Part shown: in pieces, positions 62,701-64,000 of the stretch
Position numbering within the stretch: the first letter of the stretch is position 1
Layout: each line of letters opens with the position of its first letter
From: Escherichia coli O157:H7
Lineage (GTDB): Bacteria; Pseudomonadota; Gammaproteobacteria; Enterobacterales; Enterobacteriaceae
Length of the DNA: 64,000 bases
Direction: 5' to 3' (one strand)
NCBI RefSeq assembly: GCF_013167455.1
Contig: NZ_CP038328.1
Made by a program: the position numbers

Positions 62701-64000
62701 ATTACATCCGCATGGAAACGGCCAGACGGTTAAAACAATTCATCAGCCCGATGGCAAACGTTAAGTCGCTGATTTCTGCTGCGCTGAAATGCTCAAGCAA
62801 AGGCTGATAAACCTCGTCTTCCGCATGGGTTCTGGCAATATCGGTCACAGATTCCGCCCATGCCAGCGCCGCTCGCTCGCGTTCATCAAAATGATGGCTT
62901 ACGCGCCAGCCTGCCAGGGCGTCCAGTTTGTGTTGTGGCACACCGGATTTGCGCAATGCTTTGCTGTGCATCTCCAGACAAAATGCGCAGCCGTTGATTT
63001 GCGAGACGCGCAAATAAATTAACTCCATCAACGTGGTATCCAGCGTGCTATTTTCCAGTGCCGTTTTGGCCTGCACCAGTGCGTTATACACTGCCGGGCT
63101 AAGTTCGTAGTAAGGCTGACGTAATGTAGTCATACAGTTTCTCCTCTTATTAACGCCCGCAATGTAGCACTATAATGGACTGCTAAAGAGAGCCATAAAT
63201 TACCTAAAAAAGCAGACCATATGCCACGTTATCAGGATATCGCCCGTCAGTTAAAAACGGTTATCGAGCAAGGAAAACTGAAACCTGGCGCAAGGCTACC
63301 TTCGAGCCGTACCTGGTCGCAGGAGCTGGGTGTCTCTCGATCCACTGTCGAAAATGCTTATGCTGAGCTGGTGGCGCAGGGATGGCTGGTCAGGCGGGGA
63401 CAGGCGGGTACCTTTGTCAGTGAGCAGATACATCCGCAACAGTCTGCTGTGGATGTCGTGGCTTTTGCTGGTGAAAGTCAGCAGCCGCTGCCTTTTCAGA
63501 TGGGGCTACCTGCACTTGATCTTTTTCCGCGTGAATTGTGGGCGCGGGTGATGGGCCGCCGTCTGCGTACCCAGACGCGCTTTGATTTGGCATTAGGCGA
63601 TGTCTGCGGCGAGGCGGCCTTGCGCGAGGCTATTGTTGATTATTTACGCGTTTCACGTGGGATTGATTGTCAGCCAGAGCAGGTCTTTATCACTCACGGT
63701 TATGCGGCCTCAATGGCTTTAATTCTGCACGCTCTGGCGCAACCGGGAGACGGGATGTGGATGGAAGATCCCGGCTTTCCGCTGATTCGCCCGATTGTCA
63801 CTCGCCACGGTGTGGAAATTTTACCTGTGCCGGTTGATGACAACGGACTGGATGTCACAAGCGGAATACAAAATTATCCTGATGCGCGTTTTGCCCTGAT
63901 TACTCCGGCACACCAAAGCCCGCTGGGTGTGGCACTCTCTTTAGCGCGTAGGTATCAGATACTGGAATGGGCAGAGCGTAGTCAGGCATGGATTATTGAA

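What the first reader, a model, noticed from the sequence alone, without database searches (positions are those of the whole stretch)
63134..63220. Short divergent promoter region between AhpD-like and MocR-type genes
Only 87 bp separate the two start codons. The region contains a TATAAT hexamer (within CACTATAATGG) flanked by partially symmetric TAGCAC / CTGCTA elements, a plausible autoregulatory MocR binding site controlling both genes.
Basis: seen in the sequence. Interest (0 to 1): 0.3.

Follow-up and report, generated by a model that had tools for sequence, protein, structure and literature searches.

The report
MocR operator between divergent genes
The 87-bp gap between an AhpD-like redox gene and its neighbouring MocR-type regulator gene holds a deeply conserved 46-bp three-box binding site overlapping both likely promoters, an ordinary but well-preserved example of a known kind of bacterial gene switch.

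Summary
Exactly 87 bp (63134-63220) separate the start codons of a CMD/AhpD-like gene (minus strand) and a MocR-type regulator gene (plus strand), and a perfect TATAAT sits at 63171-63176.

Twenty enterobacterial orthologous loci, and about 50 of 79 related loci from other Proteobacteria, share an ungapped 46-bp operator at 63175-63220:
- Box 1: ATGGaCTG.
- Box 2: AGaGCCA, 13 bp further on.
- An A-tract.
- Box 3: CAGaCCAT, abutting the regulator's ATG.

Boxes 1 and 3 form an inverted repeat that co-varies between clades. Box 2 is a direct copy of Box 3.

This is the commonest MocR motif layout (two direct boxes plus one inverted). It matches the 48-bp Bacillus clausii PdxR site.

Two likely -10 elements sit back to back at the left edge of the operator. 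TGcTACATT on the minus strand would serve the target gene. TATAAT on the plus strand would serve the regulator, and Box 1 overlaps it.

The orthologous group (Spro_3719, including Salmonella STM2803) was already predicted in 2016 to control COG2128 genes. This is therefore a new member of a known kind. Effector, direction of control and transcription starts remain untested.

The parts
62702..63133 (-). Target gene: 143-aa CMD/AhpD-like protein (PA0269 type), with E37, C49-x-x-C52 and H56
   Evidence: ORF. Pfam CMD PF02627, E 2.5e-21. NCBIfam AhpD core domain TIGR00778, 56.1 bits against a cutoff of 27.8. Best solved relatives are 2ijc, 7xw1 and PA0269 (2o4d), E about 1e-30. The PA0269 catalytic set Glu36/Cys48/Tyr50/Cys51/His55 (PMC3141380) maps to E37/C49/F51/C52/H56 here.
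63141..63145 (-). Shine-Dalgarno sequence of the CMD gene (AGGAG on the minus strand, 7 nt before the ATG)
   Evidence: Read. CTCCTC is at least 90% conserved in 20 orthologous regions.
63161..63169 (-). Putative extended -10 of the target (CMD) promoter: TGcTACATT on the minus strand (hexamer 63166->63161, TG at 63169-63168). Inferred transcription start near 63154.
   Evidence: The hexamer at this register is the best -10-like position on the minus strand across 59 related loci. 86% have A at -11 and T at -7; mean 3.76 of 6 matches. T63165 (the -11 A) is kept in 61 of 62 sequences, and C63168/A63169 in 20 of 20 enterics. The start codon of the divergent gene lies 21-37 nt beyond it in 23 of 49 loci. 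No transcript mapping.
63171..63176 (+). TATAAT, putative -10 of the MocR gene's own promoter. Inferred transcription start near 63183. Its last two bases are the first two of Box 1.
   Evidence: Exact consensus hexamer; one of 8 in 64 kb. It is the best plus-strand -10 register family-wide: mean 3.85 of 6, and 51% have A2 and T6. Enterics keep T-A-T-x-A-T. The -35 is weak (TTATTA at 18 bp, 3 of 6), so the consensus scan did not call it.
63175..63182 (.). Box 1: ATGGACTG, the inverted copy of Box 3
   Evidence: Mean pairwise identity 0.91 in 20 enterics. Complementary to Box 3 in 81.6% of cells across 59 loci, against 19-39% when the partner is slid.
63189..63196 (.). Box 2: AGAGCCAT (family consensus AGnGCCA), a direct copy of the Box 3 core, 24 bp upstream of it
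   Evidence: Identity 0.925 in enterics. AG and GCCA are the most conserved inner positions family-wide.
63206..63211 (.). A6 tract between Box 2 and Box 3 (possible intrinsic bend, possible UP-like element, or translation enhancer)
   Evidence: Identity 0.937 in enterics, while the adjacent spacer 63198-63205 is 0.44. The family consensus is A-rich here. The role is inferred by analogy with the A/T tract of the PdxR site (PMC10450172).
63213..63220 (.). Box 3: CAGACCAT, abutting the MocR start codon
   Evidence: Identity 0.975 in enterics. In many relatives the ATG overlaps the box (CCATG).
63175..63220 (.). Whole 46-bp operator: ATGG-N13-GCCA-N21-CCAT
   Evidence: Exact and unique in the window. 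The same ungapped spacing is seen in all 20 enteric loci. 40 of 79 related loci score at least 11 of 12 anchor bases, against 0.2% of 4,336 control windows.
63221..64000 (+). MocR-type regulator gene, cut by the window end. Full length is 444 aa in an identical O157-type genome (L001:6721-8055).
   Evidence: Pfam GntR wHTH (E 2.4e-17) plus Aminotran_1_2. Full ORF. Best solved relatives are B. clausii PdxR 7pq9 (3.2e-65) and B. subtilis GabR (9e-59). K294 aligns with the PLP lysine, GabR K312.

Best explanation
The gap is a compact divergent control region built around the operator of the adjacent MocR-type (GntR wHTH plus PLP-fold) regulator.

Shown:
- A 46-bp element (63175-63220) with three boxes at fixed spacing is under strong purifying selection. 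The outer boxes are inverted (ATGGnCTR / YAGnCCAT) and the inner box (AGnGCCA) is direct to Box 3.
- The element travels with the regulator gene across Proteobacteria, whatever the divergent gene is.

Inferred:
1. A regulator dimer places its two wHTH domains on two of the three boxes. It uses either the direct pair (Boxes 2 and 3) or the outer inverted pair (Boxes 1 and 3) with the DNA bent at the A-tract, as shown for B. clausii PdxR.
2. The target promoter is an extended -10 (TGcTACATT, 63169->63161) with no usable -35. Relative to its inferred start, the boxes lie at about -21 to -29, -35 to -42 and -59 to -66. Occupancy of Boxes 2 and 3 could therefore activate it, while occupancy of Box 1 would block it.
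3. The regulator's own promoter uses TATAAT (63171-63176), which Box 1 overlaps. Boxes 2 and 3 fill its 38-nt leader up to the ATG, so any bound form should repress the regulator gene (autorepression).
4. A PLP-linked ligand, still unknown, switches the binding mode.
For: Anatomy.

Selection:
- Boxes are 0.91-0.975 identical pairwise in 20 genera.
- Spacers are 0.44-0.54. Four-fold degenerate sites of the neighbouring gene are 0.49.
- There are no indels between 63163 and 63220, while both sides vary in length.

Breadth:
- 40 of 79 related loci match at least 11 of 12 anchor bases at the same spacing, and 52 match at least 10. Control windows reach these scores at 0.2% and 1.4%.
- The alignment of 59 sites is ungapped.

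Symmetry:
- Box 1 and Box 3 are complementary in 81.6% of cells, against 19-39% for slid controls. No shuffle in 500 reached the observed covariation score.
- Position 8 switches together: A:T in 26, G:C in 16, T:A in 1.

The site follows the regulator, not the target. The first divergent gene is CMD in 17 loci, GNAT in 11, flavodoxin-like FMN reductase in 7, NmrA-like in 6, DJ-1 in 1 and cupin in 1.

Promoter registers.

Family precedent:
- Two direct boxes plus one inverted box is the commonest MocR motif (32% of regulons). MocR regulators are often divergent from their targets and autorepressing (PMC5320631).
- The PdxR site is 48 bp with the same layout and an A/T bend (PMC10450172).
- Group Spro_3719, including STM2803, is predicted to regulate COG2128.
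- PLP-site residues are conserved.
Against: - There is no binding, footprint or transcript-start evidence for this locus or any orthologue that I could find. Literature searches for STM2803, STM2804, Z3973, Z3974, PA0268 and PA0269 gave nothing functional.
- The consensus promoter scan called no promoter in the gap. Both -35 regions are weak, and a second minus-strand -10 candidate (TATAGT, 63174->63169) fits E. coli better (5 of 6).
- Box 2 to Box 3 spacing is 24 bp (about 2.3 turns), not a whole number of turns.
- Part of Box 3's conservation could come from the overlapping or adjacent start codon. Part of Box 1's 'AT' could come from the -10.
- The covariation rests on few independent events (enterics versus the rest; Kluyvera), and the ATGG/CCAT columns were used to pick the sites.
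- The direction of regulation and the effector are purely by analogy.
Confidence: 0.75

Rival explanations
1. One reading: the regulator binds a short palindrome TAGCAC-N9-CTGCTA centred on the TATAAT, and this alone controls both genes.
For: The 5-of-6 inverted repeat is present. Each arm is conserved in enterics, with 65-100% complementarity per position. One possible compensatory case exists, Pluralibacter A:T at 63167/63183.
Against: Per-position complementarity equals shuffle expectation at 4 of 6 positions in enterics and is lost family-wide. In Kluyvera, Cedecea and Enterobacter Ag1 the arms diverge without compensation, while Box 1 and Box 3 stay matched. Conservation continues for 35 bp beyond this palindrome. 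The left arm is better explained as -10 bases plus the extended-10 TG.
Confidence: 0.08
2. The conserved block acts at the RNA level. Box 1 and Box 3 would pair as a hairpin in the regulator's leader and control translation at the SD-less start codon.
For: The inverted repeat folds into an 8-9 bp stem enclosing the start region, -9.1 kcal/mol. The start codon has no Shine-Dalgarno sequence and is preceded by a conserved A-tract.
Against: Folding is not better than shuffles (z = -1.41; 14 of 200 shuffles fold as well). There is no Rfam match. With TATAAT as the -10, transcription starts at about 63183, so most of Box 1 is not transcribed. Box 2, a direct repeat, has no role in a hairpin. The layout matches known MocR DNA sites.
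Confidence: 0.05
3. The regulator is a true PdxR. PLP itself is the only signal and the locus belongs to vitamin B6 homeostasis.
For: The NCBIfam equivalog model PdxR NF052282 scores 415.9 bits against a cutoff of 320. The best solved relative is B. clausii PdxR. The operator layout and length are PdxR-like. PLP-binding residues are conserved.
Against: No pdxS, pdxT, pdxK, pdxH or pdxO-type gene is next to the operator in any of 49 loci or in the E. coli locus. The 2016 regulon study lists the Spro_3719 group under its own name, not as a PdxR group, with COG2128, AcpD, GNAT and NmrA-type targets.
Confidence: 0.1
4. The conservation reflects only two overlapping promoters, or a different (global) regulator, and not the neighbouring MocR protein.
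For: Two -10-like elements lie in the conserved core. A-tracts can act as UP elements.
Against: Promoter elements do not explain a co-varying inverted repeat 38 bp apart, nor conservation inside the regulator's leader. The site is found next to this regulator clade in alpha-, beta- and gamma-proteobacteria, with different target genes. That is the pattern expected of a local regulator's own operator.
Confidence: 0.05

Closest known systems
Regulog 'Spro_3719 - Enterobacteriales' of MocR regulators (Suvorova & Rodionov 2016, PMC5320631, supplementary table)
   Same: - A MocR regulator divergent from a COG2128 (AhpD/CMD) gene. Members include Salmonella STM2803, Citrobacter koseri CKO_04020, a Klebsiella member (tag garbled in the held text; read as KPN_03002) and Enterobacter Ent638_0497.
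- STM2804 lies about 5 kb from stpA (PMC3723669), as the CMD gene does here.
- The Pseudomonas member PFL_2191 has COG2128 + AcpD + GNAT targets, the operon seen in L023.
   Different: - E. coli was not in that set, because K-12 lacks the genes.
- I could not see the published motif, so identity of the boxes is inferred.
- The prediction is computational only.
[quoted passage not shown]
   Same: - The regulator gene is divergent from its target.
- The site is about 48 bp with two direct motifs and one inverted motif. The outer pair is palindromic, and an A/T tract gives a bend.
- The site overlaps both promoters.
- PdxR is the best solved relative of this protein.
   Different: - The target is an AhpD-like redox gene, not PLP synthase.
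- The box sequence differs.
- The A-tract lies on the regulator-gene side.
- The ligand is unknown.
Bacillus subtilis GabR at gabR-gabT
   Same: - A MocR regulator with a divergent target.
- It represses its own promoter and activates the target when PLP plus ligand are bound (as summarised in PMC5320631).
- The PLP lysine aligns.
   Different: - The GabR site is two direct repeats only.
- Here a third, inverted box overlaps the regulator's -10.
PA0268/PA0269 pair of Pseudomonas aeruginosa
   Same: - PA0269 is a solved AhpD-like CxxC protein with weak H2O2-reducing activity (PMC3141380). It is among the closest solved relatives of the CMD protein here.
- PA0268 is a MocR regulator predicted to control it.
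   Different: - It is listed as a separate orthologous group from Spro_3719.
- The catalytic Tyr is Phe here.

Membership tests
MocR subfamily of GntR regulators | N-terminal GntR-type winged helix-turn-helix domain | tested here: met
   Pfam GntR PF00392, residues 4-66, E 2.4e-17
MocR subfamily of GntR regulators | Large C-terminal fold-type-I aminotransferase-like domain | tested here: met
   Pfam Aminotran_1_2. Full-length alignment to PdxR 7pq9 (3.2e-65) and GabR 4n0b (9e-59).
MocR subfamily of GntR regulators | PLP-binding lysine and surrounding PLP-site residues | tested here: met
   K294 in TFSKALFP aligns with GabR K312 and with the SK of PdxR (S308/K309). The DDYDSEFRY motif and the Arg of P-x-x-R are also conserved (residue roles from PMC10450172).
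MocR subfamily of GntR regulators | Operator of direct and/or inverted boxes containing TGG/TGT, separated by helical turns | tested here: met
   The three boxes have a TGG/CCA core at fixed spacing. The layout '-> -> <-' is the commonest class in PMC5320631 Table 2.
MocR subfamily of GntR regulators | Head-to-tail dimer that binds the operator | not testable with these tools
   Needs purified protein, EMSA or footprinting.
PdxR (vitamin B6 regulator) | Sequence score above the curated model cutoff | tested here: met
   NF052282 scores 415.9 bits against a cutoff of 320
PdxR (vitamin B6 regulator) | Controls adjacent PLP synthesis or salvage genes (pdxST, pdxK, pdxO/H) | tested here: not met
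   The neighbours are CMD, nrdH and ygaM. None of the 49 first divergent genes belongs to a pdx family.
PdxR (vitamin B6 regulator) | PLP acts as anti-activator by switching box usage | not testable with these tools
   Biochemical property
Spro_3719 orthologous group (PMC5320631) | Divergent COG2128/AhpD-family target, with AcpD, GNAT or NmrA-type targets in other lineages | tested here: met
   against the supplementary table
Spro_3719 orthologous group (PMC5320631) | Orthology to listed members such as STM2803 | tested here: inconclusive
   Supported indirectly. STM2804 lies about 5 kb from stpA, and the nrdH-CMD-MocR-ygaM order is kept in at least 17 enteric loci. No Salmonella sequence was compared directly.
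Spro_3719 orthologous group (PMC5320631) | Same DNA motif as the published regulog | not testable with these tools
   The motif is held in RegPrecise and the paper's figures, not in the text available here.
AhpD-like / CMD family (PA0269 type) | CMD domain with CxxC, a His four residues after the second Cys, and an upstream Glu | tested here: met
   PF02627 and TIGR00778. E37, C49, C52 and H56 are present against PA0269 E36/C48/C51/H55; Tyr50 is Phe51 here.
AhpD-like / CMD family (PA0269 type) | Thiol-dependent peroxide-reducing activity | not testable with these tools
   Enzyme assay needed
Sigma-70 divergent promoter pair | -10 hexamers with A at -11 and T at -7 | tested here: met
   TATAAT (plus strand) and TGcTACATT (minus strand). 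These are the best registers family-wide.
Sigma-70 divergent promoter pair | -35 hexamers at 16-18 bp | tested here: not met
   The consensus scan found no site in the gap. The best by eye are 3 of 6 (TTATTA) and 2 of 6 (TCTTTA).
Sigma-70 divergent promoter pair | Mapped transcription starts | not testable with these tools
   Needs 5'-RACE or dRNA-seq

The most novel reading that the evidence does not exclude
This widespread MocR clade may use its PLP site to sense an electrophile- or oxidant-derived small molecule rather than vitamin B6 or an amino-acid nutrient. It would then flip between the direct and inverted box pairs to switch on thiol- and flavin-dependent detoxification genes: AhpD-like CxxC protein, AcpD-type FMN reductase, NmrA-like reductase, DJ-1 and GNAT. 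That would make it a PLP-based stress sensor that is ancestral in Enterobacteriaceae and lost from E. coli K-12.
Probability: 0.15. Interest if true: 0.5.

Novelty: new member of a known kind. Interest (0 to 1): 0.2.

Why it matters
It gives a precise, testable operator and promoter map for an uncharacterised regulator-target pair. The pair is present in E. coli O157:H7 and about a quarter of complete E. coli genomes, apparently in Salmonella (by locus tags; no sequence compared), and in at least 17 other enterobacterial loci sampled here, but is absent from K-12. That absence is why it has escaped study.

The strictly conserved 46-bp layout across three proteobacterial classes makes it a convenient natural system for testing the PdxR-type model, in which a regulator switches between direct and inverted boxes, on a regulator with a different and still unknown signal.

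It also flags a probable over-naming of this clade as PdxR by a curated model. Beyond that, it is a routine local regulatory site.

Tried and rejected
- The consensus promoter/terminator scan found nothing in the gap because both -35 regions are weak. Its hits at 62639-62612 and 62558-62529 belong to the nrdH upstream region.
- Rfam at a permissive threshold gave no match. Folding of 63170-63235 was not better than shuffles. The RNA-element reading was therefore dropped.
- An nhmmer profile of the enteric core reached distant loci only weakly, with E 0.002-0.2. I replaced it with a spaced-anchor scan that had its own background control.
- I tested whether GTAGCAC (63164-63170) is a fourth, degenerate box in 24-bp register with Boxes 2 and 3. 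It matches only 4 of 9 positions. The pattern of conservation fits a minus-strand -10 plus extended-10 TG better: the most conserved base is the -11 A, then the -7 T.
- I tried to obtain the PdxR 48-bp sequence for a base-by-base comparison, but no supplement is held.
- I tried to establish whether EDL933 Z3974, pulled down with Tpx and WrbA by a salicylidene acylhydrazide, is this CMD gene. The paper does not describe the protein.
- Literature searches for locus tags of orthologues found no functional study.
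Full report
**What is in the window**

The window is an E. coli O157:H7-type chromosome, 99.9% identical to many O157 genomes.
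- The minus-strand ORF 62702-63133 encodes a 143-aa protein of the carboxymuconolactone decarboxylase/AhpD-like family. The evidence is Pfam CMD with E 2.5e-21 and the NCBIfam AhpD core domain above its cutoff.
- The closest solved relatives are 2ijc, 7xw1 and P. aeruginosa PA0269 (2o4d), with E about 1e-30.
- Its sequence carries E37, C49-A-F-C52 and H56. These correspond to the PA0269 proton-relay residues Glu36, Cys48, Cys51 and His55. The Tyr50 position is Phe here (PMC3141380).
- The plus-strand ORF starting at ATG 63221 has a GntR winged-helix domain followed by an aminotransferase-like domain. It is cut by the window end.
- In an identical genome that ORF is 444 aa and is annotated 'PLP-dependent aminotransferase family protein'.
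- No in-frame start codon exists between the stop at 63173-63175 and 63221.
- TATAAT is at 63171-63176. TAGCAC (63165-63170) and CTGCTA (63180-63185) are a 5-of-6 inverted repeat.

**Is it more than chance?**
- A perfect TATAAT is rare here: 8 in 64 kb on both strands against 18 in shuffles. One in a given 87-bp stretch has a probability of about 0.01-0.025.
- The stronger evidence is comparative. A scan of one genome per species with the regulator protein returned 79 loci.
- Twenty enterobacterial loci have the same divergent CMD/MocR arrangement, with regulators 60-93% identical.
- Their alignment (A1) has no indel between 63163 and 63220, while both flanks vary in length and sequence.
- Mean pairwise identity:

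| Segment | Coordinates | Mean pairwise identity |
|---|---|---|
| Box 1 | 63175-63182 | 0.91 |
| Box 2 | 63188-63197 | 0.925 |
| A-tract | 63206-63211 | 0.937 |
| Box 3 | 63213-63220 | 0.975 |
| Spacers between the boxes | - | 0.44-0.54 |
| Left part of the gap | 63147-63162 | 0.52 |

- Four-fold degenerate sites of the CMD gene in the same species are 0.49 identical. The spacers therefore evolve about neutrally and the boxes are under strong constraint.

**The conserved element**
- It reads ATGGACTG-N6-AGAGCCAT-N9-AAAAAA-G-CAGACCAT.
- Written as anchors (ATGG-N13-GCCA-N21-CCAT) it is exact and unique in the window.
- With the same spacing it scores 12 of 12 anchor bases in all 20 enteric loci.
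- Of the 79 loci, 40 score at least 11 and 52 score at least 10. These include Pseudomonas, Burkholderiales, Rhizobiales and others whose regulators are only 37-49% identical.
- Among 4,336 control windows from the same loci, 0.2% reach 11 and 1.4% reach 10.
- Fifty-nine distinct sites align without a gap (A2).
- Positions not used for selection are also conserved: AG before GCCA, CT(R) after ATGG, and (Y)AG before CCAT.

**Symmetry**
- Box 1 is the inverted copy of Box 3. They are complementary in 81.6% of cells, against 19-39% when the partner columns are slid by 1-3 positions. None of 500 shuffles reaches the observed covariation score.
- The four outer pairs were used to pick the sites and are biased. 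The four inner pairs were not.
- At position 8 the two boxes change together: A:T in 26 sequences, G:C in 16 (mostly the enterics), and T:A in Kluyvera, where ATGGTCTTA pairs with TAAGACCAT.
- These are few independent events, so the covariation is suggestive rather than decisive.
- Box 2 shares the GCCA/CCAT core with Box 3 in direct orientation, 24 bp upstream.

- TAGCAC/CTGCTA exists, and both arms are conserved in enterics.
- Per-position complementarity equals shuffle expectation at four of six positions and is lost outside the enterics.
- Where CTGC changes (Kluyvera) it changes with Box 3, not with TAGCAC.

**Whose site is it?**
- The operator always lies just upstream of, or overlapping, the regulator's start codon. 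CCATG is common, and in E. coli the sequence is CCATATG.
- The first divergent gene differs between loci. Of 49 loci it is CMD in 17, a GNAT acetyltransferase in 11, a flavodoxin-like FMN reductase in 7, an NmrA-like NAD(P)-binding protein in 6, DJ-1/PfpI in 1 and a cupin in 1.
- In Pseudomonas saxonica the divergent operon is GNAT, then AcpD-like reductase, then CMD.
- A site that follows the regulator and not the target is what a local regulator's own operator looks like.

**Promoters (inferred)**
- Across the 59 aligned sites, the best -10-like register on the minus strand is 63166->63161 (TACATT in E. coli). 86% of sites have A at -11 and T at -7.
- The most conserved base of the whole left flank is T63165, the -11 A, kept in 61 of 62 sequences.
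- In all 20 enterics the hexamer is preceded by TG (A63169, C63168), giving an extended -10, TGcTACATT.
- The start codon of the divergent gene lies 21-37 nt beyond this element in 23 of 49 loci. That fits a short leader carrying the strong AGGAG (63145->63141).
Enterics keep T-A-T-x-A-T.
- Neither promoter has a convincing -35, which is why the consensus scan called nothing in the gap.
- With starts near 63154 (minus) and 63183 (plus), Boxes 1, 2 and 3 lie at about -21/-29, -35/-42 and -59/-66 of the target promoter.
- Box 1 overlaps the regulator's -10, and Boxes 2 and 3 fill its 38-nt leader.
- A second minus-strand candidate, TATAGT (63174->63169), cannot be excluded for E. coli.

**How it most likely works**

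The protein's best solved relatives are B. clausii PdxR (7pq9, E 3.2e-65) and B. subtilis GabR (E 9e-59). K294 aligns with the PLP lysine, and the Asp/Tyr/Ser/Arg PLP-site residues are kept.

Published work shows the following:
- MocR regulators are commonly divergent from their targets and autorepress (PMC5320631).
- 'Two direct boxes plus one inverted' is their commonest motif layout, found in 32% of regulons (same source).
- PdxR binds a 48-bp site of exactly this layout. The apo form has comparable affinity for all three repeats and the PLP-bound form prefers the inverted ones (another summary, says apo favours the direct repeats). In the closed PLP-bound complex the two wHTH domains sit on the outer palindromic pair, on DNA bent at an A/T tract (PMC10450172).

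By analogy, I propose the following model:
1. Occupancy of Boxes 2 and 3 leaves the target -10 free. It places the regulator next to the missing -35, which would activate the target.
2. Occupancy of Boxes 1 and 3 covers the spacer of the target promoter and the regulator's -10, which would shut off both genes.
3. Both modes obstruct the regulator's own leader, giving autorepression.

The existence and ownership of the operator are well supported. The binding modes, the sign of control and the ligand are inference.

**Rivals**
- An RNA hairpin is unlikely. Folding gives z = -1.41, there is no Rfam hit, most of Box 1 would not be transcribed, and Box 2 would be unexplained.
- A true PdxR is suggested by the NCBIfam equivalog score of 415.9 against a cutoff of 320. 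However, no pdx gene is adjacent in any locus. I treat the name as an over-extension, although PLP may still be part of the signal.

**What is already known**
- The supplement of PMC5320631 lists an orthologous group 'Spro_3719'.
- Its Enterobacteriales members are Salmonella STM2803, C. koseri CKO_04020, a Klebsiella member (tag garbled in the held text; read as KPN_03002), Enterobacter Ent638_0497, Serratia Spro_3719 and Pectobacterium ECA2654. All are predicted to regulate COG2128, the AhpD/CMD family.
- The P. fluorescens member regulates COG2128 + AcpD + GNAT.
- STM2804 is described as a gene of unknown function about 5 kb from stpA (PMC3723669), matching the position of the CMD gene here.
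- The order nrdH-CMD-MocR-ygaM is kept in at least 17 enteric loci.
- The E. coli site is therefore an unlisted orthologue of an already predicted regulog. It is a new member of a known kind, with no experimental data found for any member.

**Verdict**

Interest is low (0.2). The residual novelty lies in the unknown signal of a very widespread, redox-themed MocR regulon.

Noticed in passing
window 62702-64000 and beyond; L001:6202-8055; L081 (K-12) 3476-3724: The CMD-MocR pair is a presence/absence polymorphism in E. coli. It is present in 1276 of 5426 complete genomes. K-12 has only 247 bp between ygaM and nrdH and retains both flanks of the O157 segment, which indicates a clean loss of about 1.9 kb. 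The order nrdH-CMD-MocR-ygaM is kept in at least 17 enterobacterial loci, so the pair looks ancestral.
   Followed up: partly
L001:6721-8052 (the regulator of window 63221-64000): The curated NCBIfam equivalog model for PdxR scores this protein above its cutoff (415.9 against 320). No vitamin B6 gene is next to the operator in any of 49 related loci, so this clade is probably over-named.
   Followed up: partly
L020, L023, L024, L030, L042, L053 (Pseudomonas) and other loci: The genes placed under the same operator in other lineages form a redox/detoxification set: GNAT acetyltransferase, AcpD/azoreductase-like FMN reductase, NmrA-like reductase, DJ-1/PfpI and cupin. This hints at the regulon's theme, but the signal is unknown.
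   Followed up: partly
window 62666-62692: A run of nine T followed by a GC-rich hairpin (GCCGGGCGCATACCCGGC) lies just 3' of the CMD stop codon. On the CMD strand it reads as a hairpin followed by an A-run, so it is not a canonical intrinsic terminator.
   Followed up: no
window 62529-62639, minus strand: Two promoter-like sites (TTCACC-16-TAAAAT and TCAACA-18-TATCAT) lie upstream of nrdH. They are presumably the nrdHIEF control region and are unrelated to the finding.
   Followed up: no
EDL933 locus tag Z3974 (PMC3191033): A protein named only 'z3974' was enriched from O157 lysate on a salicylidene acylhydrazide affinity resin together with Tpx and WrbA. By tag order it might be this CMD gene, but the paper does not describe it and I could not verify it.
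   Followed up: partly
window 63206-63223: The regulator's start codon has no Shine-Dalgarno sequence. It is preceded by a conserved A6 tract and, in many relatives, overlaps Box 3 (CCATG). This suggests weak, possibly A-rich-leader-dependent translation of the regulator.
   Followed up: no
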